Assembly: GCA_004431415.1 (NCBI GenBank)
Contig: QPMI01000489.1
Coordinates: 55,710-119,709 of the forward strand
From: Cyanophora paradoxa CCMP329
Lineage: Eukaryota; Plantae; Glaucophyta
Direction: 5' to 3'
Length of the DNA stretch: 64,000 bases
Shown: positions 21,780 through 51,942 of the stretch, one piece after another
Position numbering within the stretch: the first letter of the stretch is position 1
Layout: each line of letters starts with the position of its first letter
Notes under the pieces: generated by a model
The model's database searches: none
What the model was told of the DNA's origin: nothing
What the model saw: the letters and a program-made list of their open reading frames with translations, nothing else
Program-made: the position numbers and the translations under genes

Positions 21780-23188
21780 CTAGATACGCCTGTGAACCAA
21801 CGAGTAGCAATCGCGAAAGACGGTGTACACCTCCGAAATACTCGGGGCTGCGCCTAGCGCCGCGAATGCAGCACCCTGCTGCGCCTGCCGCTCGACTGCA
21901 TCCTCAAATATGTCCTCCTTCCACGTGACGTATCTGCGCTTGCGATGTCCCAGCTGCCCGCCGTCCTCTTCGCTGAAAACGCGCCTCACTCCCATGTACT
22001 TTTCGAGCAGGTACTTGATCACTTGCCAGCACTGCTGCGAGAGCTTCTTTTGCTGTTCGGTCGTAGCATCCAAGCGAGGGCAACGCTCATCCAAACTCTG
22101 CAGTGCCGCATAGGCCTCCCGACCGTCTGCGGAGGCGAGCGCCTCGTAGGCCTCCTTCGACCAGAGGACGCGCCCCACCAGCTTGCCGTACCCCTTCCAA
22201 CCGAACAATTTCTTGAAAAGCGACACGATCTTAGAAACCTTTAGGCGCTCCGTCGAAGGCACGATCTCTTCAAGGGGCATGTCGTATTTCAGCACCAGGT
22301 GGATCGTCGCCTTCAGCGGAATCGAGTACATCGTGCTCCACATCCAAGAGACGTCATCCTCGGTCAGCTCGTCGGAACTCTTAACGAGAAATGCAGCGAC
22401 AGCTGCCCGAGTGAGCGACAGCAACTTAGCGGACTCGAGCTGCGCAAGAGATTCGCGGGATTTCCTCCACTCTTGGACGAGGTCGTTGAGCGCGGCTGGG
22501 CCGAGGACACCGGCGTTCAGCACGCTCTCGATCTCTCGCTTCTGCCTCGCCCGCTCTTGGGCAGGTGCATTCGATCCTTGGTCCTCCGTGATTAGCACAT
22601 TCATCCACGGGCAGGTAGAGAGGAGCCGAAGTCGAGCGGCGACAGCAAGGCGGCGGGTCGGCATGCCGGCTCGCCGAGTGCCGTGGTGAATTGCTTTCAG
22701 ATCCAGAAAGCGCTGCGCGTCTGCATCGTCGCTCCCGTCACTCTCGTGCCAGTGCCCGATTGCCTTCTGCACCTGCACTTGCGGTGTACGATTCTTGCGG
22801 ACGGCAACGAGCAGGTGCTCCCCCCCTGGCGGATCGCCCTGAAGCTGCTCGCGCAGAGCTCTCGCTCGAAACAGCAGCTGCACGATGTCTTCGGACTCCA
22901 GCTGTGCGGGCTCCACGTGGAAGATGCCGTAAATTTTGTCGAAGTGCGCTTCGGGAAAATCAACGCCTGCCCCGAGCGCAGATGTAGCGATCAGCACGTC
23001 GCAAGCTTTATACGCTCCCTCTTCCGATAGATCGACGGGTGAGATGCGAACGGGCCCCTCCTTGATGAAGCGACAGCTCTTCTCCTTCGCCTGACCGACG
23101 ATCAAGCCAATCACGAAGGGTGAGGCAGACTCGTCGGCCCAATCGCGTGCCGATTCCTGCGCTTGCCTTGCTAGGCTCTCTGCAATCT
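21780..23188 (-). pseudogene. C-terminal piece of the interrupted UL9/origin-binding-protein-like SF2 helicase
   Basis: DVLIATSALGAGVDF..HFD..DIVQLLFRARAL (SF2 motifs V/VI of UL9 type). Joins the middle piece in frame (PAKAM-EIAES) once element A and one TSD copy are removed. Confidence 0.85.
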
Positions 23189-23193
23189 CCATT

Positions 23194-23598
23194 AGCTCAG
23201 CACTGCGCCGTGTCTCCAAAAAAATACCCGCGAAAAAAATCAAAAACAAATCAGAAAACAAACCATTCCCAGTAACCCAATCTTGAATATCAGTAAATCT
23301 CAGTAAGCCTCAGTAACCAAAATTGAATTAATCGAAGTTATATCATAATCTCGATTAATTATATCTTATCGAAGTTATATCTTTTTTATGCGCCGTGTCT
23401 CCAAAACAATTCCCAAGAAAAACAAACCATTCCCAGTAACCCTATTCGTATTCAACAGTAATCTCAGTAAGCCTCAGTAACAAAAATCGAATTAATCGAA
23501 GTTATATCTTAAATCTTATTTATCGAAGTTATATCATAATCTCGATTAATTATATTTAATCGAAGTTATATCCTTTTCATCCGCCGTGTCTCCCATGA
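23194..23598 (+). repeat. Left TIR of element A
   Basis: Reverse complement of 34331-34734 with local mismatches; internal ~185-bp repeat units and 5 copies of ATCGAAGTTATATC. Confidence 0.93.
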
Positions 23599-23599
23599 T

Positions 23600-24661
23600 T
23601 TAGCGTTTCGTTAAACCACTTCTCAAATTGTATCTCCTCCGAATTACATTACTCCGATTGGGTTTTATGCCTTCTTTTGCTACCAATCGATTCACTTTAT
23701 TCGTTTTATTAACCTGCTGAATCCGTTTTTGTGATGGTATCTTAATGATATCATCTTTATTCACCTTTTGCAATTCTTGTTTCTTAAATCTCCTCTTCAC
23801 TTCTTTTGTTTCCTCACCATCATTATCTTCAAGCACTTTGAAACGATTCCTATCAGCCTTTGCAACAGTGTAGACCTTCTGACTGAATTGCGCACCTTCT
23901 TTTTCAAACAATCCCTTTGGTTGCAAAACTCGAACTGTGTCTCCTGGTTTCACTTGATTAGTATCAGCCTCCTTTACACGATTGTTGTGAACAGTATCCC
24001 TCATGTAAATAAATAACTGTTTATCTTCATTTGTATACACTGCATTTGGAGAGTCATTTTTCAATGCAGAATGGGGACTGCTATTATACAAGTCAATTAC
24101 ATCACTAAGTAGATCGATCCATTTCGTGGTTCCCTTTGCTGTCATCGATTTTCTGAGATACTGTTTGAAAGTCCTAGTGAACCTATCAATTATCCCCAGT
24201 TTATCTCCTACTGTGATGTGGTCATCCTTTGCCACATCTGTGTATAGCATTACACCATGTTCACTGCACCAATTTCGGTATACTGCCTGGGAAAACTCAT
24301 TATCCCCAGAGAGAGCATTAACTTTGCCTGCTTCTTGCTTGAACCTATTTAAAATGCTCGGGATCTCACTGCTGTTTTTAAAAGGATAAACAAATCCTTT
24401 GCGACTAAGTATGTCTACGAAACTAAGCATTTTGAAAATGCCATTGTTGGCAGTCTGAAACCCTCTGAAATATGTTATATCGATTTGAAACGATCTAGGC
24501 TTTGCCACTATGCGAAGAAACGATTTGGGTTTCCTTGGTTTCTTGTAAATTTGCTGGAGTTCTGAGTTTTTGAACTTCTTTTTCAACTCTTTTTCATCAA
24601 AACTCACTTTTTCATTAATCAGTTTCTGCCTATACTTTTTGAATGATAATACACTATCCAT
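23600..24661 (-). CDS. Retroviral-type (rve) integrase, Polinton-like
   Basis: FQIDITYF, FVDILSRKGF, SGDNEF, GIIDRFTRTFK, YNSSPHSAL..SP, and an SH3-like C-terminus (GDTVRV..FEKEG). Confidence 0.93.
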   Translation of the reverse strand: MDSVLSFKKYRQKLINEKVSFDEKELKKKFKNSELQQIYKKPRKPKSFLRIVAKPRSFQIDITYFRGFQTANNGIFKMLSFVDILSRKGFVYPFKNSSEIPSILNRFKQEAGKVNALSGDNEFSQAVYRNWCSEHGVMLYTDVAKDDHITVGDKLGIIDRFTRTFKQYLRKSMTAKGTTKWIDLLSDVIDLYNSSPHSALKNDSPNAVYTNEDKQLFIYMRDTVHNNRVKEADTNQVKPGDTVRVLQPKGLFEKEGAQFSQKVYTVAKADRNRFKVLEDNDGEETKEVKRRFKKQELQKVNKDDIIKIPSQKRIQQVNKTNKVNRLVAKEGIKPNRSNVIRRRYNLRSGLTKR

Positions 24662-27600
24662 TATTGGGCGGCACAGTTACACTTAATATGAGAGAGGAAA
24701 CAATTTTTGGTAATGTGAGCCACAGCATTATTAATTCGATCTACCGAAATATCTTCAAAGTCCATGGCATTGTAGCATCGCAGGCAATGCCCATACTGCT
24801 TCCCATATCGCTGCTTGATCCAATCCCATGTGATGTAATCATGCTCATCGAATTGTCTGTTTGCTGCTCGGTCCTGATCCTTGTAAGTCGAAATCTTCTC
24901 GTTATTCTCTCTTTTCCACACTTTCCAGTGAGCCATTTCGAAATTATCATGGTAAATAACAACATCATCCAGCCTTGTGGTTCGAGTGAGAGCAACATAT
25001 AGCCACTTCTTTGAAACAAATGGCGCCCCAGTTTCGAACACGACTACCCTGTTCCCTTTGCAGCGAATCGTATCACCTTGAACAACATGGCAGGTGTTTG
25101 CGTAAGCCAGGGCGAAATGTTTGACTGCATCCCTGCTGAGAACAATCTCATCCTTCTTGTTGGCAATGTCAGCAATAATGAAACTGTCCTTTGAGAGCTT
25201 GACAATCTTGTAGACAAATCCATTATGAACTATCTTCCCACCCTTTGCAATACGAGTCTTTGCAACAACTTTGATCCCGCCAGCATAAATGGAAACATTA
25301 TCCCCGTAGTTCATTTTGTGAAGGGCTAGGTTCACCTCTGCACCCTTGCGGTTTGTATACACAATGCCTTTATCTGTCTTTGCCAATTCGTCCACAACCT
25401 TGAACCCGTACTTTGCTAGGACCTCACTTACACTCAAACCTTTCTCGAATAAATCAATTCGAATTTGCTCAACCTTTCTGCGATCTTCCTCAGTCTCATG
25501 GCGCTTGTTCACTTGGAGTAACAATTCGTTGGGGAACAGGCGATGGAGGATATCAAGGTAATACTCATCTTGATCAACACTCATATCCTGAATGGGTGGG
25601 TTCTGATACGGGTCACCTGTGGCAATGTATACCTTATCTGGGAACTGCTCATTCATGATGTGGTCCAGGGCTGCCAGTTCTCCAATCTTAAACTGACAGA
25701 TCTCATCAATAACAATGCAATCAAATTCTACCAAACCAGATGCATTCCCTCCTACGATTTCATCCATGTTCGACTCATCGATTTTGAGATGAAGGGCATC
25801 ATAGATTGTCTTCACATTTTTCAATCCTTGCTCTTTCATTTCCTTCACTCGCTTGTTGGTCGGAACAATATAGAGGGGATTTTTGAAACGCTTCCCATAT
25901 TCAACTGTCATGTGAGTCTTTCCAACTCCTGGAACTGATCCGAGAAGAACCCATCGTTTTTGTGTAGCCAGCAAATCACAAATCGCGGTTGTGTCATACT
26001 CATCAACCACAGAGTGTTTGGTATAACTGTAGTTCTCGATTTTCACAAAGTCAGTCGCTCTCTCAAACTTTCCGTAACGAATTCGTTTTGCCTCGAGGTC
26101 TTTCTTCTCACCTGAAAACTTTTTAGAAAAATTGGGGCAGCATTTCACACTGAATTTTCCAATATTCTCAAAGGCATTGCGATCGAATGACACTGGGGCA
26201 ATGGGTTCATAAGCGATCCCATAAACACAATCGGTGTTCAAAGCGAGTGGTCGGATCTGCTGTTTAGCGAGTTCGACACACTTCTCATACATACACATCC
26301 TCATAATTGACAAGAGGGTAGTGTACAATGGCATGAAGCCATCAATGAGCTGCTTTTCTGCTACCTGATTGACATAGTAGATATGGGGTTCGGTCATCTC
26401 TTCCTCACACAGAACGAACTCTGTCTCCTCATAAGTGGCAAGAGTCTCACCAAAGAGGTAAATTTTAACCTCTCCTCCGTTCTGTTTTTGGAACTCGATT
26501 GCATCGTCTCTGTTGTGGAAAATGGTGGTTTTCACTCTGCTATTTCGTTGCTTTCCAGTTTGCCCAATCGCACTCACTAAGATCTGCTTCTTATCAACAG
26601 GATCGAGGTCGCTATCTAAGATTCGAGCAACTGTGTTGCCTGCAAGGTTGGGAATGAGTTTGTAAGGTCGCAGAACCGCTTTGATGGAGATGTCATCCTT
26701 GAAATCCTCGAAATGCTTTTTGAGAACCAAACCAGGAACGACATTGTACTTGGAATCAATGATCATCCTCTTGTATCTGTTGTAGGTGTTTGCTTCATAC
26801 TCCTTTCCGTTCTTGTCTTTGGCTTTGAAAAAGTATTTGTCGTCCAGTTTCACATAATAGAAGCTGTACTCCTCGATTTGCTCTGCAGCTGTGATTGTCA
26901 CACTCTTGAAGACATCGAACTTGCTGAGAACAGGAACGAATTTGATCATCAAGGCTACAATGTAAGGGTATGCTTTGCACATATCGAACTCGTAAATATC
27001 TGTGTTGTAGCGAATTTCATCAAAGGTTTCCTCATCCACATCAAAGAGACCACGAAGGGCAGTCTGCACTCCATTCTTGAATGCATTTATGGTTTGCTCA
27101 TTGTAAGTACTCTTGTTGGAAGTGTTGATTAGAGACCTATACATATCCAGATTTAGTTTCTCGAATTTATCTCTGTACTCAGCATTCTTGAAGCTAATCT
27201 CGAAAGCTGTTTCCACATCTGTATCGTTACCAGGTGGGGTCACGACAACATCCTTATCGTCAATAGTGAAACGAATATGGGTTGCCTTTCCGATTTGGGA
27301 GAACCCAGGTTGCACCTGATAATTATGCACCACAATGAACTCTCTGAGAAGTTCATCCAGTGAACCACCATAGCAGATTCGAATGCTCGATTGGTTCTTT
27401 GGATTGTCAGACCTGACAATTCTCAGAATGTCGTCTGGATTTGTGGCAAACTCCTTGAACCTTCTTTGCTTTATAATCTTGTAACGAGAACTGAGTGGAA
27501 CATTGGTATCTTTTGGCTTGGAGCCATTGAAGGACTGTGTGAGAGCCTTAATATTGTGATTTAACAAATACATGTGACCATTCTCAATCTTCACATATGC

Positions 27601-28749
27601 AACAGAAGGGGTCAAGTGTGTGTTTCTGGTCTTGGGCAGGAAAGTCAGTTCAGGGACAGGGGTCCTGTCGTCCTTTCCAATTGTAACCATGCCTAGGCGC
27701 AGTGGGTCAAGAACCTTCTCCGAAATGGACTTGAAAGAAATGCCCCAATCATCTCCTTCAACAGGGTCTCGCCCATTCACCATCTTAAAGAGTCCGTTAT
27801 AAGACCAATCGATGCGCTTGTATTTCCCTTTGGTCTTAGCCTTCTCAAATGCTCCTCCAAACCATTTGATGAGGACATCGAAAACACACTTCCCAACCTT
27901 GAATGAGTCTCCTTTCAAGAACATTTCCTTGAATGTGGTGGCTTGGGGGTTCCCTTCGTTTTTAATGAAATTCGAAATAATCATTGGAGCGTTTGTATTG
28001 TCTCTGAGGACTTGTTCATTTCTTGGGATGTATTCTTCATTATCTGTGGTGATGACTCTTTCGATTGTCATAATATCGGGGTAGGTATCTTGCTCGATTA
28101 GTTTTAGGTAGCGGAAATCTTGATTGGTCGAGTTAAACTCGATGACTGCTGCAATAAATTCAGCAATGACAGTTCCCTCTACACATGGGAACGTATTGAA
28201 GGTGGATTGAACCAGACCGAGAGCGTTCAGAAAAGCTGCCTTGGTACACTGGATACCAAAGGGGCGATTGTTCCGAAGCCTCTTCGATTCTATATAGGTC
28301 ACACCATTCTCAGTGACCCTGTTTGCATTTGCAGGGGTCTGTTCTCCCTCTTGCAACTCACGGAAGAGTCTCACATTCAGAGTGACCATGTTTCCAGGTG
28401 AGTTTTCAACAAACTCACGAAGGTTAGCCATCATCTGCTGGAAAGGAGTCAAGCGCTTCCGCTCCTTTGCTTCGGCTGCTTTCTTGTTCTGCTTCTCAAC
28501 ATTCTTAGCGGCTCTCTCAGCCCTCTTCTCCTTCTTCTCTTGCTTGCGATACAAACGAGGCTCTACGATACCTCTCAGTGTATCTCTGATATCAATCAAC
28601 TTTGGAATTCTAATTGCTTTGAAAGTAAATTCTCTCAAGAAATAGATATCCTGCTCTCGGGTCAATTTGTCTTCTACTTTTGCTTGCATGTAGTAACCAA
28701 GAATCTCATCCTGTAAATTCTTCGAAATTCGATTACTTGGTCGAGGCAT
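24661..28749 (-). CDS. Multidomain replication protein: divergent family-B polymerase + SF1 (RecD/Pif1-like) helicase + C-terminal His-Me/HNH-like finger
   Basis: Pol motifs YEFDMCKAYP, KQILVSAIGQTGK, LNTDCVY. Helicase motifs GSVPGVGKT, IVIDEICQ, TGDPYQNPPI, YANTCHVVQGDT, LYVALTRTT. C-terminus CLRC..SVDRINN..H..NC..CN. Confidence 0.85.
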   Translation of the reverse strand: MPRPSNRISKNLQDEILGYYMQAKVEDKLTREQDIYFLREFTFKAIRIPKLIDIRDTLRGIVEPRLYRKQEKKEKRAERAAKNVEKQNKKAAEAKERKRLTPFQQMMANLREFVENSPGNMVTLNVRLFRELQEGEQTPANANRVTENGVTYIESKRLRNNRPFGIQCTKAAFLNALGLVQSTFNTFPCVEGTVIAEFIAAVIEFNSTNQDFRYLKLIEQDTYPDIMTIERVITTDNEEYIPRNEQVLRDNTNAPMIISNFIKNEGNPQATTFKEMFLKGDSFKVGKCVFDVLIKWFGGAFEKAKTKGKYKRIDWSYNGLFKMVNGRDPVEGDDWGISFKSISEKVLDPLRLGMVTIGKDDRTPVPELTFLPKTRNTHLTPSVAYVKIENGHMYLLNHNIKALTQSFNGSKPKDTNVPLSSRYKIIKQRRFKEFATNPDDILRIVRSDNPKNQSSIRICYGGSLDELLREFIVVHNYQVQPGFSQIGKATHIRFTIDDKDVVVTPPGNDTDVETAFEISFKNAEYRDKFEKLNLDMYRSLINTSNKSTYNEQTINAFKNGVQTALRGLFDVDEETFDEIRYNTDIYEFDMCKAYPYIVALMIKFVPVLSKFDVFKSVTITAAEQIEEYSFYYVKLDDKYFFKAKDKNGKEYEANTYNRYKRMIIDSKYNVVPGLVLKKHFEDFKDDISIKAVLRPYKLIPNLAGNTVARILDSDLDPVDKKQILVSAIGQTGKQRNSRVKTTIFHNRDDAIEFQKQNGGEVKIYLFGETLATYEETEFVLCEEEMTEPHIYYVNQVAEKQLIDGFMPLYTTLLSIMRMCMYEKCVELAKQQIRPLALNTDCVYGIAYEPIAPVSFDRNAFENIGKFSVKCCPNFSKKFSGEKKDLEAKRIRYGKFERATDFVKIENYSYTKHSVVDEYDTTAICDLLATQKRWVLLGSVPGVGKTHMTVEYGKRFKNPLYIVPTNKRVKEMKEQGLKNVKTIYDALHLKIDESNMDEIVGGNASGLVEFDCIVIDEICQFKIGELAALDHIMNEQFPDKVYIATGDPYQNPPIQDMSVDQDEYYLDILHRLFPNELLLQVNKRHETEEDRRKVEQIRIDLFEKGLSVSEVLAKYGFKVVDELAKTDKGIVYTNRKGAEVNLALHKMNYGDNVSIYAGGIKVVAKTRIAKGGKIVHNGFVYKIVKLSKDSFIIADIANKKDEIVLSRDAVKHFALAYANTCHVVQGDTIRCKGNRVVVFETGAPFVSKKWLYVALTRTTRLDDVVIYHDNFEMAHWKVWKRENNEKISTYKDQDRAANRQFDEHDYITWDWIKQRYGKQYGHCLRCYNAMDFEDISVDRINNAVAHITKNCFLSHIKCNCAAQ

Positions 28750-28990: not shown

Positions 28991-29248
28991 TTAACAGAGA
29001 TATTTCGATTTGCGACCACGGTTAGAATACGGGACACCATAGAGATACTTCACAAAGCAGACTGCATTGGAAGCATAGAGACGCTGGGAACTCTCAACGA
29101 TTCTCATGGCTCTGTAACACTCATCAGTATGGTATAAATCACGCATTTGCTTTGCGAATTTCGCATTATACTTTTTTAAATATTCCTGACCTTTTTCACT
29201 TTTACGATAACGATAAGTAGCACGCTTCTGAGCCTCACTGATTGGCAT
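28991..29248 (-). CDS. Small basic protein, possibly DNA-binding
   Basis: MPISEAQKRATYRYRKSEKG.. with the same upstream motif as the replication gene. Confidence 0.6.
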   Translation of the reverse strand: MPISEAQKRATYRYRKSEKGQEYLKKYNAKFAKQMRDLYHTDECYRAMRIVESSQRLYASNAVCFVKYLYGVPYSNRGRKSKYLC

Positions 29249-29597
29249 GTTGTCCTTTTCTACTCTCTTAATATATGTTAAGAAATCTTTAAGTAGTTTT
29301 TCTGTCTGTATATAGCGAATAAACTCCTGTCAAATTTTGGTCCCGATTGCAGAGCATCCAGTACGAAAGAAGATGCTGGAAAAATGATAAAGCCACCGAT
29401 ACCCAGAAGGTTCACTTGTCGGCTGCAAGTTTCTACCACTGAACCCGGTAGAACAGGTGATTAAAGTGATTTACCTATGGATATTTCACTTCGCTCTACA
29501 ACGCCTCCATAAAAATGAAGAAGTTTTGAGCCTACGGGATAGGATTGGTTACGTAGCGCTAACAATGTTTGAGAAATTATATTATTCAGATTGATCC

Positions 29598-30359
29598 TTA
29601 ACGGCGATAACCGGGTCTTATACCAAGCTTGGCGAATCCAGAGACCATAGGGGCAGCATTTGGAATCGAGTTGACTGGATCAGCCTGCGAAGTGGCAACC
29701 CGAAGGATCGATTTATTGAGGACCGGCAAATCCGTTTTGTTGGAGTCTTGGTAATCGATTGTCTTCGCAATCAATTCGGTTGGTGATTCTTTTACGACTT
29801 GAACAGGTTCGGGAATAACTTCATGGGTTACTTCTGGTTTCTTCTCAACCTTTTCCTTTGTGATTGGCTGTTCCTTGATCTTGTTTTCGTTTTTGGTCTC
29901 TGCTGCAATACCATCAACAAGACTCTTAGCATACTGATATGTTACAGATTTCAGTCCACCAGTGGTTGAACGAATAAAGTAGCGGTTGCGATGGTCTTTC
30001 TCGGAATAGGTTGAGTAGAGTCGCTCACCACCATCAAGCAGTTTCAGCAGTGTCGATGATGAGGCAACCTTGTCCTTTGTGGATGATTTGAACTGTCCTT
30101 TCTTGATTCCTCGTTTGGCTCCGGGCATGCGGTTCAGTGGGACTTGGTCAACAAGGGCATTATCATCATTACTGTTTTTCGTAGTGGCTTGGGTGAATTG
30201 GTTTCGTTCTTTATGGACTTCCTTTTCGAGGTCACCAGTTCCGTATGCAGCGAGTCCTTTCGATTTCTTATACCAGTTCCTTCCATTCTCACCATTGCCA
30301 ACATCCGCTTCAGCGGCTGGTTTGGCTAAGAAATTCTTGGGTTGAGTCTTGCGAGCCAT
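29598..30359 (-). CDS. Hypothetical Lys-rich protein (possible core protein)
   Basis: 253-aa intact ORF directly downstream of the penton gene; no family recognised. Confidence 0.6.
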   Translation of the reverse strand: MARKTQPKNFLAKPAAEADVGNGENGRNWYKKSKGLAAYGTGDLEKEVHKERNQFTQATTKNSNDDNALVDQVPLNRMPGAKRGIKKGQFKSSTKDKVASSSTLLKLLDGGERLYSTYSEKDHRNRYFIRSTTGGLKSVTYQYAKSLVDGIAAETKNENKIKEQPITKEKVEKKPEVTHEVIPEPVQVVKESPTELIAKTIDYQDSNKTDLPVLNKSILRVATSQADPVNSIPNAAPMVSGFAKLGIRPGYRR

Positions 30360-30395: not shown

Positions 30396-31283
30396 CTATG
30401 ACCGTGAGAACGGCAGGTAGAGTCCCTCCAACTCTTTTATGACATTCTTCAATGCTTTTTTCGTCAGATCTTTATCATCTTCAGTAATCAGTTCAAGAGT
30501 CATCGACCAGTCGGTAGTAATGTCTGCTGTGGCTCCATTCCAGTAAGAAAGTCTCACATCTAGAGTCTCAACCTCAACCAAGCCATTCTGCTCGTGAACG
30601 ATCATGGAATTATTCGATGAATCATATTTTAATAGACTGCCAACCGTTTGGTCAATCTCAATTTTCGCGATAGCATTGTTATCTCGTTTGTTATTGCTCA
30701 CATATCTTCCTTTCAGTGGATCAACATGAAGAAGCAAATAGGAATTAAATAGTAGATCTAATGGCATTTCACTATCAATGTAGTGAGCATAAGTAAAGGC
30801 TCCAACTGTGACATTAGATGATAGAGGACTCGATTGGTACAGTGTGTTAGCATTTTCAAAACCACAGAAATTGGCTAAGAGTTGAGTGTTCATAGTGATT
30901 GAGAATGGAACCTCACACATGAACCTTAGAAGCAATGTTGTGGGATCATAGGTTACATAGAAATGGCGAGTGTAAGTTCCGCCACCCGCTTGATTATAGG
31001 GCTGGGATCCAATGCGAGCGATCAGATAATTCACCAGTGAATCCGGTGTATATGCACCTCGGAGGACTTCGTTGTTTCTATTCTTTGGGTTCCCAGCATT
31101 ATCGAGTGTTTGTGTGGTGAGGGTTCCTACTTCAGAGAGGTTGTAAAGATTGTGAAACATCTCAAAGTTCGTTACTCGACAGGCTCTGACCTTTTGGATC
31201 GCATAAGGGAGTCTGTATGTGAAATTAGTTGGGGTTCCATCCGATCGGTCCCTGGAATCAATATTGAGATAGTAACGCGTCAT
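30396..31283 (-). CDS. Minor capsid (penton) protein
   Basis: YLNIDSRDR..TNFTYRLP..V....V..FE..HNLYN N-terminus and AIAKI..LDVRLSYWNG..DWSMTLEL C-terminus, typical of single jelly-roll pentons. Confidence 0.82.
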   Translation of the reverse strand: MTRYYLNIDSRDRSDGTPTNFTYRLPYAIQKVRACRVTNFEMFHNLYNLSEVGTLTTQTLDNAGNPKNRNNEVLRGAYTPDSLVNYLIARIGSQPYNQAGGGTYTRHFYVTYDPTTLLLRFMCEVPFSITMNTQLLANFCGFENANTLYQSSPLSSNVTVGAFTYAHYIDSEMPLDLLFNSYLLLHVDPLKGRYVSNNKRDNNAIAKIEIDQTVGSLLKYDSSNNSMIVHEQNGLVEVETLDVRLSYWNGATADITTDWSMTLELITEDDKDLTKKALKNVIKELEGLYLPFSRS

Positions 31284-31335: not shown

Positions 31336-32543
31336 ATGGCACTCACTGGAACTACCCTGAAGGAACTCCTCGTAACTCCCGGTTCCGATCAAATTTATCT
31401 TTCCCCTGGTCTCCAAATCGGAACCAACCCCAAATACAAACCATTCCTCGAGCAAGTTCGTCCCGGGGCAACACTTTTGGCTTCAAGAATACCGCTTACT
31501 TTGATCTACCTCGCAAGCAACTCCTTGCTGGTGTTTCGCTCTATTTCAAGATTGCCACTGGTGGTGGTGTAGCCTGCACCCTCCCCAATGGTGGTTCTTC
31601 TTTTATTAATGAGGTCCGTTTCGTTCATGGTGGTTTCAAGTATATTATCCCTGGTGATTGGATCACTGTAAACGCCCTGGTCGATAATGATCACGCTACC
31701 ATGAGCAGCATGTATGCTTCTCTCGGTTACTTCAAAGAGACAGATCGTGAAAGCACAGATGAAGCAATGGAATACATCGTTAGAATCCCCGCTGCTTTCT
31801 GGGAAGAAGCTTATTTCCCATTATGTACGCTAGCCGATATGCCAACAATCGAGGTTGATTTCCGTGATGCTGCGATTGTCCAAGTTCCGGCTGGTGGATC
31901 TGTAACCTTTGCGGATTGCTCTCTGATCTGCCAATTCGTAAACATTGCTTCGGCTGAGGCTGAGACACTCCTTAAAATGGCGAACGAACAAGGTGGCATT
32001 CGCATCCCGATCACAGAGGTCATTCACAAGAAGACCCGAGCGCTCAAAACCGCTGATGCTGGTGAATCTGTTGAGGTTACACTCGCTAATGTTTCTGGTC
32101 TGGTTCACTCGATTCTGATGACTGTTCGAGAGGTGAACAAACTTAACACCTACACTCACTCGGATTTCTGCGGTCATGAATCTGCTGTTAAGATTGATCA
32201 GTTCCAGATCTTCCACAACAATCGCTCCCTGGATATATCTAACAAACCCATTTCCGGTTTCCTCTCTGCTGTCAATCACATTCCTTCTCACTACAAGGGT
32301 GTTACTGTGGGCAATACCACGTACGGATTCGAGTCTGGAAATGTTTACGGAATTGTTCTTTCCAAGTCTGGAAAAGATTCGCTTCGGAACTCGGTTATGG
32401 GTTACCAGGATTTCTTCAACAGCAGCTCGAGTTACATGGATCTCACTGTTTCCGGATGCACTGATGCCGCTCCTGTTCAGGTTGATATCTATGCCCTCCG
32501 ACACAATGTTATGGTACTTAATGGCTACAACATCTCTACCTGA
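31336..32543 (+). CDS. Major capsid protein (double jelly-roll, inferred); one frameshift at ~31465 in a G-run
   Basis: Lies between penton and ATPase. Restoring one G gives a ~400-aa beta-rich ORF (FDLPRKQLL, FINEVRF, YIVRIP..FPL..IEVDF, DIYALRHNVM) homologous to the MCP at 42309-43757. Confidence 0.75.
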
Positions 32544-32640: not shown

Positions 32641-33399
32641 ATGGATAACACAGTAAATCTTGATGATATTCCGGAGTTCGATCCGAGTAAGACGGTTCGA
32701 ATCCCGACAAGAATTTTGAATGTTGGTCGCTCCAATACAGGTAAGACAATGTTCACAAAATACTTACTTTACGAGCTTCGTGACAAGATCGATCAAATCG
32801 TTATATTTAGTTCAACAGCTTTTACTGGACAATTCAATGACATCACCCATCCCGATAACATCTATGAAGAGTGGGATGATAACATTGTTTTGAGATTGAT
32901 CAGTATGCAAAAGAAACGAATTGAGAATAACGAAAAGCGAAATAACCTAGTTATCATACTCGATGACATGATAGGTTCAAATTTGGATATGCATAATTCG
33001 GCTGTGTTATCTAAATTAGTAACGAGTGGAAGACATTATTCAATCTCGGTAATCTTTAATGTTCAGCGTTTGTGTTCTATTTCTACTACCATTCGTCGCA
33101 ATGTGGAGTTCGTTGTATTTTTCAATATTCTTGGGAACGAGAAAGAGTTCAATTGCGCCTTTGATGAGTACAATGGTGGTTTGGATAAGAAGACCTACAA
33201 GGAATTGCATAGACTATGGGGTTATAATTACCAAACTGTCATAGCTAGCCTGCAAGGTTATGATATCAAGACCTATACTGATAGAGCAGTACTCACTGAT
33301 GATGATATAAAGGGCTTTAAGAAGTTTGTGAAGAGAAAAGCAATTAAAAGGAGTCAGATGGCTCGGATTCAGCGAGAAATGACCACAATCAGTGTGTAA
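32641..33399 (+). CDS. A32-like (FtsK/HerA) genome-packaging ATPase
   Basis: Walker A VGRSNTGKT, Walker B IILDD, SGRHY, FNVQ, IRRN. Confidence 0.93.
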   Translation: MDNTVNLDDIPEFDPSKTVRIPTRILNVGRSNTGKTMFTKYLLYELRDKIDQIVIFSSTAFTGQFNDITHPDNIYEEWDDNIVLRLISMQKKRIENNEKRNNLVIILDDMIGSNLDMHNSAVLSKLVTSGRHYSISVIFNVQRLCSISTTIRRNVEFVVFFNILGNEKEFNCAFDEYNGGLDKKTYKELHRLWGYNYQTVIASLQGYDIKTYTDRAVLTDDDIKGFKKFVKRKAIKRSQMARIQREMTTISV

Positions 33400-34330: not shown

Positions 34331-34734
34331 TCATGGGAGACACGGCGGATAAAAAGGATATAACTTCGATTAAATATAATTAATCGAGATTATGATATAA
34401 CTTCGATAAATAAGATTTAAGATATAACTTCGATTAATTCGATTTTTGTTACTGAGGCTTACTGAGATTTAGTGAGATTTGGAATTGGGTTACTGTGAAT
34501 GGTTTGTTTTTCTTGGGAATTGTTTTGGAGACACGGCGCATAAAAAAGATATAACTTCGATAAGATATAATTAATCGAGATTATGATATAACTTCGATTA
34601 ATTCAATGTTTCTTACTGAGGCTTACTGAGATTTACTGATATTCAAGATTGGGTTACTGGGAATGGTTTGTTTTCTGATTTGTTTTTGATTTTTTCGCGG
34701 GTATTTTTTTGGAGACACGGCGCAGTGCTGAGCT
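34331..34734 (-). repeat. Right TIR of element A
   Basis: Inverted copy of 23194-23598. Confidence 0.93.
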
Positions 34735-35827
34735 CCATTGCCTTTGCGGGCGTCTCTGTGATGACCAATGCGCGGTGACGACCAGGGCGGCACTGGATCA
34801 TCAAATCGGATTCCACGTGATCCGGGCTGTCCGTGACACGCATTTTCCACGAGCAGGTCCGCCTGGAGTTGTAGAGCAGTCGAAGGCTCGCCCCCCTCTC
34901 TCGCGCAGACTCTGCTAGGTACGCAAGGTCAACAGGTCGCACGAATCCATCCATAGCCACAATGCGAGATGCTTGCATCACACCCCTCCAGAGACCCACG
35001 CAGCGCTCGTTGCGAGGGAGTGATCGCACGCCGAAGTCAAGGCCAACAGGCTCGAGAGTCCCACTCGAAGTCAGATGCTTCGTGAGCGACGAAATTTCAT
35101 CGAGGACCACCAAGATAGGTGTCCGGTCCTTCCAGTCCTCAAGCACTTTGTGCAGAGAATCCAACGTGATGATAACGCACCTGCACTTCGGATGGCGGTA
35201 ACCGTACTCGCCGTGTGACCCCTTCGAGTGTTTCGGTGGCTTCTGAATGTCCATGTACAACACGGCGTTGTCCGGCAGGTTCGCGGCGTCCAGACGTCGC
35301 TTCAAATCACGGCTAAAAGCTCTACGACAGGTTACGAGAATCACGTGCCAGTCGCTTTCTAGGGCCGGCCGCAGGTATGTGTCGATGAGCGCCTGCGTTT
35401 TCCCAGTGTTGAGACCCGAGCAGATGACATCCACTTGAGCGTGGGTCGGCTGGGCTGGCAGCTCGCCGAAAGTGGAAGTTAGAATGTCGCGAGTCAGGAA
35501 GCGCTCGTCCACGAGCTCGTAGCTCACAGAGGACGGAACCATGTCTGCGGACTCGAGTGCGAGCAGAAGCGTCGGTAGCGCAATGTCAAATGCCACGGGC
35601 TGGGTTGGGTCTGTTAAATACTGCCCGAAAGCGCGCGCAGCGGACGAGCTGCCCTCAGGCTCCACCTCGATCCCATACGCGCGTATAGTGATCCTAAACG
35701 CGAATGCTGTCCCTGGACTCGCAATTAGGGGGCAGTTAATGAGTATTAGTATGGAGCCATCGGGCCCGGGCTGGAGATCTTGCACTCGACGGTGGTCGTG
35801 CAAGTCGATGCTGATGCGCAGAGCCTG
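34735..35827 (-). pseudogene. Middle piece of the interrupted UL9-like SF2 helicase
   Basis: CSGLNTGKT (Walker A), VTCRRAF, ITLDSLHKV, VVLDEISS (Walker B), IVAMDG; bounded by the TSDs of elements A and B. Confidence 0.88.
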
Positions 35828-35833
35828 ACCAGC

Positions 35834-37298
35834 ACACATATAAAAACAAATATTATTATCCCTCGCGTTCCGCTCAGGATAATAATATTTGTTTTTATAT
35901 GTGTGTTACTATAAGTTATATAAAGATATTAGCATTTTTATCATAGTGTATATCGATATGTGATATGTATTCTATCGGTAGTTCGTAAATGAATCAATAA
36001 AAATAATATAAGTATCGTGGAATCTTTGTAAAATATGTATATATAATATGTAATCGCGATATAGCCGATATGTGTTTACGATGCGCGATGTGTATCTAAA
36101 ACAACTACAATGTGCTGCTTGGGACGCGCCTCATATAGTCATGTGTATCACCTACGTAGCTTCGATAGGGTGGGGCGGGTGGGGTGAGGTGGGGCATTTT
36201 TTTGAATTCCCTAAAATGTTTCACTCCCAAAAATTCTTGGTCAAAAAAGACCCCACCCAACCCCACTTACCCCACCCTGTATTATTCTCTTTATCTATGA
36301 TTGATTTCAATGTAATTTAAATATAAATATGTATGATTGAGTATGTTAAATTAATACTGGGTGGGGTGTGAGGGTGGGGTGTGAGTGGTATCGGTATGGT
36401 AGTCCAATCTAAGATGGCACACATAAAATCATGATGTGTTATTTTTACTTCCGGTTTGATACTTATCGGACTTCGATAACTTCGATAGGGTGGGGCGGGT
36501 GGGGTGAGGTGGGGCATTTTTTTGAATTCCCTAAAATAATTCCCCTCAAAAATTCTTGGTCAAAAAAGACCCCACCCAACCCCACTTACCCCACCCTGTA
36601 TCTTTTATTATATTTATGATTGATTTCAATGTAATTAATGTATAAAGTATAGAGATTATGTATGTTAAATTAATACCGGGTGGGGTGTGAGGGTGGGGTG
36701 TGAAAGTGGTATCAGCCAACCATTTAATAATTACGATATTGAACCGACGTGATACCGACGAGATATGATATATTCAGATCGTATTAGAACGGCGCGATCA
36801 CTAAGAAAAACAAGTATCATGTGCTGTATATTTCGCGATCCCTGAATCGCGAATCGATAGGGTGGGGTGAGAAAGTGGGGCACCACCCTCACTGTATACA
36901 CTGTGATATGATCGCAATCCCGATGTAGCCTACTATGATATCGTGCGGACTTCGATAGGGTGGGGTAAGTGGGGTGAGGTGGGGCATTTTTTTGAATCCC
37001 TTAAATTTTTGGGGGTCAAATATTTTTGGGCAAAAAAGACCCCACCCAACCCCACCCTCCCCACCCTGTATTACTTATCGATACACCTCACTTATTTCAA
37101 TGTATAAACTCTATTAAATTAGATAGTAAATATGTATAGAAATAACGAGATTGTAGTATAGGGTGGGGTGTAGGGTGGGGGCAAAATGCAAACTGAATCA
37201 GTGCGATATAATTTAGTGAACACAAAGTGGATATGAAGTGGATACGAAGTGGATACGAAGGGGATAAGTGCGCCCCGCCCACTATGCAAGATACATGC
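35834..37298 (+). repeat. Left TIR of element B, with terminal 71-nt hairpin and G-run repeats
   Basis: Reverse complement of 52254-53719; I saw only one substitution and one homopolymer indel. Confidence 0.95.
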
Positions 37299-37599
37299 AA
37301 ACTACATGCGAGTTCTATGAAAACAATAACGATTTAGTCATGTATATATTTCGTATATATGTCCGCACCTCCGTGTGTGTGATCCCGCACAACTTTGCTT
37401 TTTTGTGTTTTTTTTGTTTTTTTTCGCATATCACGACATATACATATATACACCGGCGTCACCGACATATTCGGGGTCATCACATCGCGGCGATTCCGAA
37501 AACATATAGCATGCGATAGCGTAGTATTTTTACGTTGTCTGATCGTAATGTGATAAATTAGCTGTTATGGCTGATCGTAATGTGATAAGAGATCATCGA

Positions 37600-37901
37600 T
37601 AGTAGGCTGACAGTAGGCTGAGAGTAGGCTGATAGTAGGCTGACAGTAGACTGACAGTAGGCTGACAGGGTGATAGTATAGGCTGACAGGGTGATAGTAT
37701 AGGCTGACAGGCTGATAGTATAGGCTGACAGGCTGATAGTATAGGCTGACAGGCTGATAGTATAGGCTGACAGGCTGATAGTATAGGCTGACAGGGTGAT
37801 AGTATCGGCTGATAGTATAGGCTGACAGGATCAGGATTGGCTGATGACAGGCTGACAGGATCGGGATTGGCTGAGGACAGGCTGACAGGATCAGGATTGG
37901 C
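37600..37901. repeat. Tandem minisatellite (AGTAGGCTGAC 11-mers grading into AGTATAGGCTGACAGGCTGAT 21-mers)
   Basis: Directly visible. Confidence 0.9.
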
Positions 37902-38519
37902 TATAATAAAGCGTGCTCAGGTTACGGTGTCCAATCAAAAACGCACACAATTCAATCGGCGAAAGGGGGCATACGGGAAAAGCGAAAGGGGGGATACCAA
38001 AACACCGATTTTCGATGGAAATCGTCAAACGCTTGTATCTCATCACCAGCTCATCACCCTGCAAAACTGAAAATAGCGCCGTGACCGTCTTAACGAGGCT
38101 AGCACGTCCATATAAGTTTCATAGGCTCAAAAAATAATGTGTAAAATGCATAGTTTTTAAAAATGCGATCGCGACTTCGCGGAGACCCCCCCTTTCGTTT
38201 TCCGGGCATAACTTTGGACAGCAAGCCGATCTCGGCGCGCTCTCAATTGCTACGTGCTCGTAACTTGCTTCCGGGCATGTTGGTGCTAGTTTGACTAGCT
38301 AACTCAACCGTGGCAAGAAGTGCAAATTCGCCATAGGCACAAGTGCCCGAAAATCGAGGTGTCCGCTACATTCTGAGAGCCGGCGCGCGTTCCCATGAGG
38401 CTCCACTAGTCATACTTTGCAACCGTGCGCGTATAGAGTAGTTCTACGCTACTACAAAGCGGCGCGGTCTGATTCGCAAAGGGCGCGATTTGGCGGCTAC
38501 GAAAGCACCGCGGCGCCTA

Positions 38520-39962
38520 CTACTTTCGTGGTCTCAAAGTCGCTTTTCGATCGCCATTAGCTACCGGCGCTACCGTTGCTACTTTTCTACTACTTCTTAA
38601 TGTAGCTTTGGTTTCCGGCGCTTTATAGCTCTCAGTTTGATTAGAGAACGACTTATACCATCGTTGGCTATTCACGCCGCCGGATAGCTTAGGCTCGGCG
38701 GCTGTTACTAGCCGCTGTAATTCTTTATTTACGCGTTTCTCTTTTTGCACGCGATCTTCTAATAGAGTGCCTTGCGGCACAGCCGCGGCGGCTTCTATGC
38801 CCTCTCTACGCAATTGCGCATCGACCCGCGCCTCGTCCTTTGCCGCTTCTAATGCATCTACTGTGGGCGCCATTAGGTAATCCACAGCTTGGACAGGCAA
38901 TAGCTCGTGGAAGGCAAAGCGACCCTCTACGCGATTGCCGTCCGGATCAGTTAGCATAAACTTATAGCCCTCGCGCGCGGCGACAGTATATACGATTCGG
39001 CTCCAATTGTTACCGCCCTTAGCGAATGGCGTCTTCTCGATCCGTAGCCTTACTGACATGCCCGGCTGAATCTGATCCAAATAAGCTATCGATTTCTTGA
39101 ATTTCGCATCTTCTTTTTGCACTATAAGCTTATAGTGACTCTCGTTGGTCTCGGCGGGCATATAGCCGGTCGCAGAGTGCACCGTATTATTATAATTATA
39201 TTCCAGAGACGAAAGGACATCTATAAATCGCGCCGTATTATTCGCGATGCAGTAGCTCGTGATCAGCCGCCGCATTTGCTTGTTAAATGCTTCTATGCGC
39301 CCTTGCGCGCGATGGTCGGCTGTGTCCGCTATCTGATGCTCGATAAACTGATTCTCGAAATATTTGCGCATAATATCATTGCGGAATTCGCTTCCCGCAT
39401 CGCTTTGCACTTTGAAAATTGGTCTCGGCGCCTTATTTTGCAGCTGTATAAAGGCGGCTAAGGTCGACGCCGCGGACTTATCCCGCATCGGGATAATGAA
39501 CCCGACCCGTAATGTGTTCTCCATAGCCGTGAGAAAAGCACTGTAATTATCATTATACTTCGAGTAAGCGGGAAAGAATAGCAGATCAATTACGTAGGTA
39601 TCGAGAGGCTGTCGGATCGGTATAGCAGGGTCTCGTTTGCGGGATAGGTGCGGCGCATTAATCTGAACGACCTCTTGCCGGCTATACCACTCTTGCAATT
39701 TCTTATAATTCTCATTGGGCAGCTCTTGCCGTAGCTTAGTGATCCCTTTGAAACCGGTTTGCGGATCGTAGAATTTACGCGCGATTTTCGATTGCTCCGG
39801 GACAGCAAGGGCTACGGGCACGTCGCGGGGCACCAAAGCCTTTAAATCAGACCGCTTTACTATGCGGCTCTCTTTATTCTCTTTCGGCACGGGGATCGGC
39901 AATGTGCTCCCCTCTAAATCTTGCGATCGTCTTACTATTGGCGGTCTTGACATCCTTGTCAT
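38520..39962 (-). CDS. Retroviral-type (rve) integrase, Polinton-like
   Basis: FYDPQTGFKG N-terminus; DDE triad VIDLLF / QSDAGSEF / GRIEAFNK; YNNTVHSATGYMP; GMSVRLR..FAKG..NWS. Confidence 0.93.
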   Translation of the reverse strand: MTRMSRPPIVRRSQDLEGSTLPIPVPKENKESRIVKRSDLKALVPRDVPVALAVPEQSKIARKFYDPQTGFKGITKLRQELPNENYKKLQEWYSRQEVVQINAPHLSRKRDPAIPIRQPLDTYVIDLLFFPAYSKYNDNYSAFLTAMENTLRVGFIIPMRDKSAASTLAAFIQLQNKAPRPIFKVQSDAGSEFRNDIMRKYFENQFIEHQIADTADHRAQGRIEAFNKQMRRLITSYCIANNTARFIDVLSSLEYNYNNTVHSATGYMPAETNESHYKLIVQKEDAKFKKSIAYLDQIQPGMSVRLRIEKTPFAKGGNNWSRIVYTVAAREGYKFMLTDPDGNRVEGRFAFHELLPVQAVDYLMAPTVDALEAAKDEARVDAQLRREGIEAAAAVPQGTLLEDRVQKEKRVNKELQRLVTAAEPKLSGGVNSQRWYKSFSNQTESYKAPETKATLRSSRKVATVAPVANGDRKATLRPRK

Positions 39963-40025
39963 CAGACAATAAAAAAGATCAATGTAACATTTTACATGCA
40001 CGAGGCAATAGAAGGTTTTGTTTGT

Positions 40026-40631
40026 TTACGGTAAATCAGAGAAGAAGATATTAGCAACGACACCATTTCGGTTGGCTCCATTTATATACCACATGTGGCT
40101 GTTACGACTCCACTTCGCTCCATTATCTTTTAAGAATTTACGCAACGTTGTGCGGCGTGTAATATTAATTCCATGCTCTTCGAATTTCCGATGATATTTG
40201 GACAGATCGCGTTTAACATGGAAATATAGAATGTCGATCGGTTGTTGTTCATGCTCACGCTTCATGGCTCTCACTACATCTACCATGCTATACTGAGTGC
40301 ATCTAACATGACCCCAGAAATCCACAACAGGTAAATATCCTCCTGTATCATCATCGACCAGGATGATATTATACCTATATCTGTAAGGGTTCCCAGTGGC
40401 TTTAACATAAGCGAATACGTTATCTGATGATCGGATTACTATTTTATGCGGTTCTTCAATGAAGAAGCCAATCGACTTCACATCTTCTCTACGAATGTAT
40501 GTATTCACAAATGAGAATTGAACATGCTCACTATCAAAGGAGAAAATGACATCTAACAGTTCCACCATGTTTAATGACATTTCAGAGAGAGGGAAACTAA
40601 TGATAGGGTTACCATTAAAGCGATAAGCCAT
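40026..40631 (-). CDS. Hypothetical protein with a C-terminal DUF5710-like motif
   Basis: LKDNGAKWSRNSHMWYI resembles the K..GA.W....WY motif; AAAATTGA upstream. Confidence 0.55.
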   Translation of the reverse strand: MAYRFNGNPIISFPLSEMSLNMVELLDVIFSFDSEHVQFSFVNTYIRREDVKSIGFFIEEPHKIVIRSSDNVFAYVKATGNPYRYRYNIILVDDDTGGYLPVVDFWGHVRCTQYSMVDVVRAMKREHEQQPIDILYFHVKRDLSKYHRKFEEHGINITRRTTLRKFLKDNGAKWSRNSHMWYINGANRNGVVANIFFSDLP

Positions 40632-40770
40632 TGCCTTTTACTTTAAGCTGAGAAAATATTTTCCTGTTGCCTAAATGTAGCGCGTTCTCCTTAAATCATT
40701 TTGCGTTGCCCACGGGGCTTTCAATTTTTGACGATCCGCGGTGAGATTCTCACGTTTACTGTCAATAAAA

Positions 40771-41205: not shown

Positions 41206-41252
41206 ATTTGCTTTCCCTTATAAGAAACAAAATAAAAATAAGATCTTTGTAT

Positions 41253-42203: not shown

Positions 42204-42308
42204 TTTTGATCTTTCCTTCCCTTTACTCTATGTATTTGCCTTTTCTTTAAGTAGTTTTCCTATGGAAAACGTCAGAAAAATGACATCAAATTTTGCCCGC
42301 GAGATTCC

Positions 42309-43757: not shown

Positions 43758-43790
43758 ATTTCGTTTTTATCTTCCGCTGAGAAATTTATT

Positions 43791-45077: not shown

Positions 45078-45104
45078 TTTATTCTTTATTAATAGGAAAT
45101 AAAA

Positions 45105-46078: not shown

Positions 46079-46096
46079 AATAATCTTATATTACAA

Positions 46097-49420: not shown

Positions 49421-49449
49421 TTTTTGTAGTATGCCTTAATAGAGAAATA

Positions 49450-50912: not shown

Positions 50913-50933
50913 TAAGTAAAGAACAATCAAAAG

Positions 50934-51934: not shown

Positions 51935-51942
51935 GTAAAAGA

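What the first reader, a model, noticed from the sequence alone, without database searches (positions are those of the whole stretch)
24661..28749. All-in-one replication protein: possible vOTU protease + atypical PolB + SF1 helicase + HNH-like finger
Seen: the polymerase motifs are non-canonical (DMCKAYP for DxxSLYP; KQILVSAIG for KxxxNSxYG; NTDC for DTDS) but keep the two key aspartates. I see no clear 3'-5' exonuclease motifs. A complete SF1 helicase follows, then CxxC..DRINN..H..N..CxN. Upstream, GKCVFDVL...ENGHMY gives a Cys/His pair. Known: protein-primed PolBs of polintons and adenoviruses carry a terminal protein and an OTU-like domain N-terminally. Inference: a self-processing, possibly proofreading-less replicase with a built-in helicase and a resolvase-like finger.
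Basis: partly seen in the sequence, partly recalled or inferred. Interest (0 to 1): 0.7.

Follow-up and report, generated by a model that had tools for sequence, protein, structure and literature searches.

The report
Polinton-like virus all-in-one replicase
A small virus integrated in a eukaryote's genome encodes one long protein with predicted protease, DNA polymerase, helicase and nuclease-finger parts that likely copies the viral DNA by itself; it is one more member of an already described protein family.

Summary
The 1362-aa ORF (28749-24661, minus strand) carries all motifs named. Residues 253-401 model as an OTU protease (Cys288 kept in 121 of 122 relatives, His392 in 122 of 122). Residues 429-889 match phi29 protein-primed polymerase (Z 14.9), with only an exonuclease remnant. 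An SF1B helicase and a PacI-like HNH finger follow.

This layout is published as the pPolB-S1H or Tlr1-like helicase of Polinton-like viruses (PMC5499653, PMC11161782); 983 relatives were found. The gene lies in an 11.5-kb element with 405-nt inverted repeats, a 5-bp target duplication, an integrase and a packaging ATPase.

Additions from this work: 15 of 16 listed substitutions between copies are silent, which favours a working polymerase. Tyr223 is a candidate priming residue. This element and a second one both interrupt a single UL9-like helicase gene of a larger resident element, and other sequencing runs hold that gene uninterrupted. No activity was tested. Verdict: new member of a known kind, low to moderate interest.

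The parts
24661..28749 (-). pPolB-S1H (Tlr1-like) replicase ORF, 1362 aa
28453..28749 (-). Residues 1-99: variable, charged N-terminal helices; function unassigned
   Evidence: model; only generic coiled-coil matches
28045..28392 (-). Residues 120-235: alpha/beta middle domain at the position of the terminal protein (inferred)
   Evidence: secondary structure; position as described in PMC11161782; no fold match of its own obtained
28081..28083 (-). Tyr223, candidate priming (linking) residue in the loop before the last strand of the middle domain (inferred)
   Evidence: Ser/Tyr at 222-223 in 36 of 47 relatives, against a median of 6 for column pairs 120-280
27547..27993 (-). Residues 253-401: vOTU-like cysteine protease; Cys288 (27886-27888), His392 (27574-27576)
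27055..27465 (-). Residues about 429-565: exonuclease-domain remnant without conserved catalytic acids
26083..27054 (-). Residues about 566-889: protein-primed PolB palm and fingers with TPR1/TPR2-like insertions; Asp589, Tyr594, Lys721, Asp840
24955..26004 (-). Residues about 916-1265: SF1B (Pif1/Dda/RecD2-like) helicase
24664..24912 (-). Residues about 1280-1362: zinc-binding HNH (His-Me) finger, Asp-Arg type with a loop His
23600..24661 (-). rve-type integrase; its ATG overlaps the replicase stop codon (TAATG)
   Evidence: weak Pfam rve, below cut-off; E 3e-19 to the L001 integrase, which passes Pfam rve
23194..23598 (.). Left terminal inverted repeat of element E1 (ends AG...CT)
   Evidence: 96.6% over 406 columns
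34331..34734 (.). Right terminal inverted repeat of E1
23189..23193 (+). 5-bp target-site duplication, left copy; right copy at 34735-34739
   Evidence: present once in empty-site contigs
32641..33399 (+). A32-like genome-packaging ATPase
   Evidence: Pox_A32, E 3e-15
31336..32543 (+). Probable major capsid protein gene (inferred), broken by frame shifts near 31460 and 32540 in this copy
   Evidence: no Pfam or NCBIfam match; not folded
30396..31283 (-). Probable minor capsid (penton) gene (inferred from size, place and a recalled motif)
   Evidence: no family match
28991..30359 (-). Two unassigned ORFs (253 aa and 85 aa)
21780..23193 (-). 3' piece of the interrupted UL9-like SF2 helicase gene of the outer element
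34735..35833 (-). Middle piece of the same UL9-like gene
   Evidence: (Herpes_ori_bp, E 5e-13)
53720..54316 (-). 5' piece of the same UL9-like gene
35834..53719 (.). Second integrated Polinton-like element E2 (1.5-kb inverted repeats, 6-bp duplication); no replicase ORF seen

Best explanation
The gene encodes the pPolB-S1H (Tlr1-like) replicase of an 11.5-kb integrated Polinton-like virus: a polyprotein that likely primes, copies and unwinds the linear viral genome by itself. Shown: the domain order, the folds (as models), the conservation of the catalytic residues, the element's ends, and purifying selection. Inferred steps: (1) the middle domain acts as terminal protein, and the palm adds the first nucleotide to a hydroxyl residue, Tyr223 being the best candidate; (2) the vOTU Cys288/His392 dyad cuts between middle domain and protease, leaving the primer protein on the new 5' end; (3) the palm, with Asp589 and Asp840, elongates without proofreading; (4) the SF1B helicase moves 5'-3' on the displaced strand, the same direction as the fork, and supplies the strand separation and grip that a thumbless, exonuclease-less palm would lack; (5) the HNH finger nicks or trims DNA at ends or branches; (6) the integrase encoded directly downstream inserts the product.
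For: Polymerase: the model of residues 425-930 has pLDDT 85.4 and pTM 0.85. All 9 Foldseek matches at E<=0.001 are phi29 polymerase. VIA gives phi29 Z 14.9 (rmsd 5.3, 359 aligned) against Z<=7.9 for RNA-primed PolBs. Protease: the best two of 48,161 chains are yeast Otu2 (Z 7.1, rmsd 3.9, 112 aligned; Z 6.8), and 44 of 50 rows in the second look are OTU/deubiquitinase entries on residues 252-420. His392 and Otu2 His300 each lie 7 residues before the end of the aligned range. Helicase: Pfam AAA_19 above cut-off; the family profile hits Dda, RecD2 and Pif1-type chains, best E 8e-18. Conservation. Selection: 15 of 16 listed substitutions between this copy and other runs are synonymous, against 21-34% expected (p<=9e-7); all but one lie in residues 438-759. 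Context: inverted repeats, duplication, integrase, ATPase; the integrase follows within 17-93 nt in 4 of 7 related viral contigs. Literature: PMC11161782 describes TP-vOTU-PALM-S1H with C-terminal HNH or GIY-YIG and predicts an active polymerase.
Against: No activity was assayed. PMC5499653 read the same palm as inactivated, because motif C is altered and motif 4 is missing. This copy also lacks the motif B Asn (Val725; Asn in 109 of 122). The OTU Z-scores (6-7) are in the range the tool calls middling; the Cys-His distance was not measurable; and the third triad position is Tyr (87 of 122), where Otu2 has Asn. The middle domain's order of strands and helices differs from the PRD1-type terminal protein, and it gave no fold match. 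Tyr223 itself is kept in only 18 of 47, and one other site (263-264) scores higher for Ser/Tyr. The HNH matches are weak (E 0.012 at best against solved structures) and the protein itself misses Pfam HNH. The substitution table showed only 40 of 258 rows. The capsid-like gene of this copy is frame-shifted, so this copy may not be autonomous.
Confidence: 0.75

Rival explanations
1. The palm is a dead polymerase used as a DNA-binding scaffold; the protein works as a helicase and a host or helper-virus polymerase copies the genome (the 2016 reading).
For: The first Asp of motif C is absent, motif 4 and the thumb have no counterpart, and the exonuclease is lost. The motif B Asn is replaced in this copy and in 13 of 122 relatives.
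Against: Both metal-binding Asp residues, the motif B Lys and the steric-gate Tyr are almost invariant (121, 122, 122 and 118 of 122) at about 25-30% overall identity. PMC11161782 notes that active PolBs lack the same Asp. Silent-change bias shows selection on the domain, though not catalysis.
Confidence: 0.12
2. The polymerase and helicase work, but the OTU domain acts mainly as a deubiquitinase against host defence and the protein is not self-processed.
For: Every fold match of the domain is a deubiquitinase or a viral protease/deubiquitinase. No cleavage site was identified here.
Against: The domain always sits between the terminal-protein-like domain and the palm, and the related pGKL1 polymerase is known to lose its priming domain by proteolysis (PMC11161782). 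The two roles are not exclusive.
Confidence: 0.08
3. The ORF is a decayed relic whose odd motifs reflect neutral drift after integration.
For: The capsid-like gene of this copy and the ATPase of the neighbouring element are broken.
Against: The frame is open for 4.1 kb; no indel within the ORF is among those listed for three other runs (12 of 17 rows shown); 15 of 16 listed changes are silent; the same motif variants occur in a subgroup of relatives; and the inverted repeats are 96.6% identical.
Confidence: 0.03

Closest known systems
pPolB-S1H fusion proteins / Tlr1-like helicases of Polinton-like viruses and transpovirons (PMC5499653; PMC11161782; pMVRE groups 2-3 in PMC13215967)
   Same: Length within the 1,000-1,400 aa described; order of variable N-terminus, middle alpha/beta domain, vOTU with Cys and His, exonuclease-less protein-primed palm, SF1B helicase, C-terminal HNH; linear element with inverted repeats.
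   Different: Nothing in architecture. The sequence is distant (best relatives about 30% identity) and belongs to a subgroup without the motif B Asn. No tree against the named reference proteins was built.
Tlr1 element of Tetrahymena
   Same: Replicase plus rve integrase, capsid genes and ATPase, with no maturation protease seen (gene set as in PMC5499653).
   Different: Tlr1 ends in GIY-YIG, this protein in HNH.
Mavirus pPolB
   Same: [quoted passage not shown]
   Different: Mavirus uses a separate SF3 helicase; here an SF1 helicase and an HNH are fused.
phi29 DNA polymerase
   Same: Closest solved fold (Z 14.9); insertions laid out like TPR1 and TPR2.
   Different: phi29 proofreads, has a thumb (recalled), uses a separate terminal protein and has no helicase.
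PacI-type His-Me finger (group 20 in PMC5714182)
   Same: Asp-Arg in place of the usual Asp-His, two zinc pairs, helix Asn.
   Different: The loop residue that is Tyr in PacI is His here (114 of 122 relatives). The match is weak.

Membership tests
pPolB-S1H / Tlr1-like helicase | SF1B helicase in the C-terminal part of a 1,000-1,400 aa protein | tested here: met
pPolB-S1H / Tlr1-like helicase | Protein-primed PolB palm with motifs A and B, and motif C lacking its first Asp | tested here: met
   the motif B Asn is replaced by Val in this copy
pPolB-S1H / Tlr1-like helicase | TPR1 and TPR2 subdomains | tested here: met
   Insertions between motifs A and B and between B and C in the model; alignment to phi29 spans chain residues 5-499 and scores twice the RNA-primed PolBs. 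Residue-level superposition not seen.
pPolB-S1H / Tlr1-like helicase | No functional exonuclease domain | tested here: met
   No conserved Exo I-III acids; a structural remnant is present
pPolB-S1H / Tlr1-like helicase | vOTU with catalytic Cys and His next to the palm | tested here: met
   Cys-His distance not measured
pPolB-S1H / Tlr1-like helicase | Middle alpha/beta domain at the terminal-protein position | tested here: inconclusive
   An alpha/beta domain is modelled at 120-235 but was not folded or searched alone; no fold match or 107
pPolB-S1H / Tlr1-like helicase | C-terminal HNH or GIY-YIG nuclease domain | tested here: met
   Conserved CxxC..DR..H..N..CxxCN pattern; Pfam HNH in 2 of 8 aligned members; weak PacI match; not folded
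pPolB-S1H / Tlr1-like helicase | Falls in the Tlr1/PLV/transpoviron clade in palm or helicase trees | not tested
   The reference sequences were not held
pPolB-S1H / Tlr1-like helicase | Polymerase, helicase and protease activity | not testable with these tools
   needs bench assays
Polinton-like virus (integrated) | Terminal inverted repeats and target-site duplication | tested here: met
Polinton-like virus (integrated) | A32-like packaging ATPase | tested here: met
Polinton-like virus (integrated) | Double jelly-roll major capsid protein and penton | tested here: inconclusive
   Candidates by size and place; the major one is related to the E2 candidate (E 2e-10); no family match, not folded
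Canonical Polinton/Maverick pPolB | Intact exonuclease domain and no fused helicase | tested here: not met
T4 endonuclease VII-type resolvase | Asp-His catalytic pair at the end of the first strand (PMC5714182; the pairing for Endo VII is recalled) | tested here: not met
   Arg at the His position in 114 of 122 relatives

The most novel reading that the evidence does not exclude
The HNH finger is not a passenger homing endonuclease, as PMC11161782 suggests, but a working part of the replicase. It cuts the protein-capped genome ends and hands clean ends to the integrase encoded directly behind it (here with overlapping stop and start codons). That would answer how protein-primed integrating viruses shed their terminal protein before integration, a step that paper calls unclear. 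The finger is intact in 112 of 122 relatives (a set biased towards it, since the query held it), and the integrase follows directly in 4 of 7 related contigs.
Probability: 0.15. Interest if true: 0.65.

Novelty: new member of a known kind. Interest (0 to 1): 0.27.

Why it matters
The architecture is known, so the finding itself is ordinary. Its use is as a test case. Two papers by the same group disagree on whether this palm is an active polymerase (PMC5499653 against PMC11161782), and my searches surfaced no biochemical test. This copy is intact, under purifying selection, has exactly mapped genome ends and offers named residues to mutate. If active, it is a one-chain primer, protease, polymerase and helicase machine without proofreading. 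The double insertion into one helicase gene of another resident element is a side lead on whether these viruses target other viruses.

Tried and rejected
No whole genome is held for this window, so copy number and other insertion sites could not be checked. A single-sequence search of solved structures found nothing useful. The word-indexed search found only 2 relatives, against 983 by full HMMER. Locus searches with the protein and with three single relatives found nothing; a closer subgroup alignment without the query gave 7 loci.

Alignment A2 misplaced the N-terminal fragment and was discarded. A3 had misaligned ends; it was used only as a family profile, not for folding. The middle domain was not searched alone, so its lack of a fold match is no evidence. 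The ESM Atlas gave only leads: HNH-type clusters at 0.81-0.87 and unnamed eukaryotic clusters at 0.88-0.91.

No RNA holder was listed, which says nothing about expression. Contig depth over the replicase is 3-5 times that over the flanking gene, but the tool says depth is no copy number, so it was not used. No terminal inverted repeats were found in the 4 related loci tested; these may be cut.

Rejected: a new fusion (in print); an Endo VII-type resolvase (Asp-Arg, not Asp-His); a canonical Polinton pPolB; decay. The outer element could not be filed as a Mriyavirus: only a UL9-like helicase, YqaJ, DUF5767 and an HNH-AP2 gene were identified, and no capsid or HUH gene of its own lies in the window. 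Paper search was swamped by unrelated papers and is weak; one search gave 2 unrelated papers; search 78 on nested insertions gave 5 papers, of which I read passages of two.
Full report
Observation. A full HMMER search with residues 174-1362 found 983 representatives at E<=0.001 and 227 at E<=1e-30. I aligned the protein with the 122 relatives of at least 1150 aa among 152 held, dropping 30 shorter ones. Cys288 is kept in 121 of 122, His392 in 122, Asp589 in 121, Tyr594 in 118, Lys721 in 122, Asp840 in 122, Walker Lys944 and Glu1016 in 122, and the full HNH set in 112; 110 of 122 keep all four sets. The query included the helicase and HNH, so the set is biased towards proteins that have them.

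Protease. Residues 1-432 were folded with a 48-sequence alignment: mean pLDDT 79.9, and 90-97 over residues 291-400. Cys288 starts a helix and His392 starts the second strand of a hairpin, as PMC11161782 describes for vOTU. Against 48,161 chains the two best matches are yeast Otu2 (Z 7.1, rmsd 3.9, 112 aligned; Z 6.8); 4 of the 50 rows are OTU domains, and the rest are generic matches to the long N-terminal helix. In the second look, 44 of 50 rows are OTU or deubiquitinase entries on residues 252-420. Otu2's triad is Cys178, His300, Asn302 (PMC10175282, passages). His392 sits at the same distance from the end of the aligned range as His300, but the Asn position is Tyr, so this is probably a dyad. 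The Z-scores are middling, and the Cys-His distance could not be measured. The best viral match is a densovirus-labelled DNA polymerase (E 3e-4).

Polymerase. Residues 425-930 were folded with 51 sequences: pLDDT 85.4, pTM 0.85. All 9 Foldseek matches at E<=0.001 are phi29 polymerase (best 6.8e-9). VIA gives Z 14.9, rmsd 5.3, 359 aligned, covering phi29 residues 5-499, against at most 7.9 for RNA-primed PolBs. The match begins in phi29's exonuclease domain, so a remnant of that fold survives, but no acidic column there is conserved. It ends before the thumb (boundary recalled), and the helicase follows. The odd motifs are family traits: motif C lacks its first Asp throughout. The motif B Asn is present in 109 of 122 but replaced in this protein and 13 relatives, most of which share its DxxKxYP and KxxLVSxIG pattern.

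Helicase and finger. Pfam AAA_19 and Viral_helicase1 pass their cut-offs. The family profile hits Pif1-, Dda- and RecD-type chains (best E 8e-18), which places it in SF1B; PMC5499653 states that this group moves 5'-3'. The C-terminal finger has Asp-Arg where most HNH nucleases have Asp-His. The family profile matched PacI weakly (E 0.012). In an 8-sequence profile, His1345 falls on PacI's loop Tyr (E 4.3), the residue that replaces the catalytic His in that group (PMC5714182, passages). His1345 may therefore be the general base (inference). A resolvase role is not specifically supported.

Middle domain. Residues 120-235 model as an alpha/beta domain at the place where PMC11161782 puts a terminal-protein-like domain of variable topology. 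That paper locates priming residues (Ser or Tyr, near Gly or Pro) in the loop before the last strand. Here that loop reads Asp-Thr-Tyr-Pro-Asp. Ser or Tyr occurs at 222-223 in 36 of 47 relatives, against a median of 6 over column pairs 120-280; only the pairs at 263-265, in the linker and OTU start, score higher. Tyr223 is a candidate, no more.

The element. The gene lies in element E1, 23194-34734 (GC 0.41 against 0.58-0.60 in the flanks), with inverted repeats of about 405 nt at 96.6% identity, AG...CT ends and a 5-bp duplication. E1 also encodes an rve-type integrase whose start overlaps the replicase stop, an A32 ATPase, and probable penton and capsid genes, which were inferred and not folded. 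The capsid-like gene is frame-shifted near 31460 and 32540 in this copy; other runs show length differences at both places, so these are either assembly errors or damage to this copy. In 4 of 7 related viral contigs an integrase follows the replicase within 17-93 nt; one more has one about 2 kb on, and two show none (one ends 80 nt after the gene). One contig carries a Sputnik-type capsid, so the replicase also occurs in virophages, in line with PMC13215967 (part 1 and passages). The left flank holds a prolyl oligopeptidase gene in many short pieces, which points to an intron-rich eukaryote, probably a protist or alga (inference).

Evidence of function. Twenty runs of one organism hold at least half of the gene's words; some may be the window's own source. 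Of the differences listed for three of them, 16 fall in the ORF and 15 are synonymous, against 21% expected (34% for transitions only), p<=9e-7. The table showed 40 of 258 rows, chosen by support and not by effect. This shows selection on the polymerase region, not catalysis.

Nested insertion. E1 and a second element, E2 (35834-53719; 1.5-kb repeats at 99%, 6-bp duplication), both interrupt one UL9-like SF2 helicase gene. A paralog covers all three pieces in order. Contigs of 2670 nt (run X1) and 3360 nt (run X4) cover both sides of E1's site and share exactly 5 letters between the sides. I matched the contigs across the two calls by run, length, depth and strand. The X4 contig continues 713 letters further, the length expected if E2 is also absent; those letters were not compared. 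These contigs differ from the window at 12-13 of 1494 positions and may be other copies, since a neighbouring gene has 22 relatives, 20 of them named from EukProt contigs. The outer region has YqaJ, DUF5767 and HNH-AP2 genes. UL9-like helicases occur in some mriyaviruses and giant viruses (10.1101/2024.02.29.582850, passages), but membership was not established. Two hits 1.1 kb apart suggest either a target preference or tolerated insertion in dispensable viral DNA; one locus cannot decide.

Comparison with print. PMC5499653 (parts 1-3 of 5 read) described the pPolB-SF1 fusion with a C-terminal HNH in Polinton-like viruses and judged the palm inactive. PMC11161782 (parts 2-4 of 6 read) added the vOTU with conserved Cys and His, predicted an active polymerase and named these proteins pPolB-S1H. 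I did not open its supplement; Figs S6 and S7 may already show this middle-domain variant. PMC12721341 (passages) describes a different, reversed fusion. Passages of 10.64898/2026.06.19.733378 (also part 1), PMC12220804 and 10.64898/2026.10.13.758929 treat such replicases as common and mobile, and the last notes that pPolB travels with DDE integrases; the preprints' supplements were closed. An earlier scan note on another genome reached the same family; it is not independent support.

Verdict. Observation confirmed and interpretation supported, but the system is known: a new, distant member of the pPolB-S1H family. Interest 0.27.

Noticed in passing
window 21780-23193, 34735-35833, 53720-54316 (minus strand): One UL9/origin-binding-protein-like SF2 helicase gene is interrupted by two different Polinton-like elements 1.1 kb apart; contigs from other runs hold it without the first and probably without the second. 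Possible targeting of a resident virus's replication gene.
   Followed up: partly
window 35834-53719: Element E2 has an integrase, capsid-like genes, a truncated A32 ATPase and fibre-like genes, but no polymerase or helicase ORF was seen. Each end is a 72-nt near-perfect hairpin, which hints at hairpin-primed copying or dependence on another element's replicase.
   Followed up: partly
window 21475-21530, 21617-21672, 54405-54463: Three related 54-nt hairpins bracket the UL9-like helicase gene, the outer pair inverted. They could be its binding origin, or the ends of a small mobile replicase unit.
   Followed up: no
window 24659-24663: The replicase stop and integrase start overlap (TAATG), with no room for a promoter between them; this may indicate coupled translation. 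Related contigs have gaps of 17-93 nt instead.
   Followed up: partly
window 54470-64000 and 19291-21479: GC-rich, intron-free-looking genes (YqaJ, DUF5767, HNH-AP2, and an unassigned 195-aa protein with about 20 paralogs in one eukaryotic gene set) suggest a multi-copy endogenous virus related to giant viruses or mriyaviruses; unclassified.
   Followed up: partly
window 31336-32543: The capsid-like gene of E1 is frame-shifted near 31460 and 32540; other runs differ in length at both places.
   Followed up: partly
L005:2209-8279: A contig with Sputnik-type major and minor capsid genes carries the same vOTU-palm-SF1-HNH replicase family.
   Followed up: no
L001:8048-9013: An ORF that reads like a ribonucleotide reductase small subunit (recalled likeness, not tested) lies just upstream of the replicase in a 20-kb viral contig.
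   Followed up: no
window 33600-33900 and 37590-37890: Short tandem-repeat arrays (12-nt units in E1; 11- and 21-nt units in E2) lie just inside one terminal repeat of each element.
   Followed up: no
window 59962-61282: A cluster of inverted and direct repeats with a TGACGT-containing 12-nt unit in the outer region.
   Followed up: no
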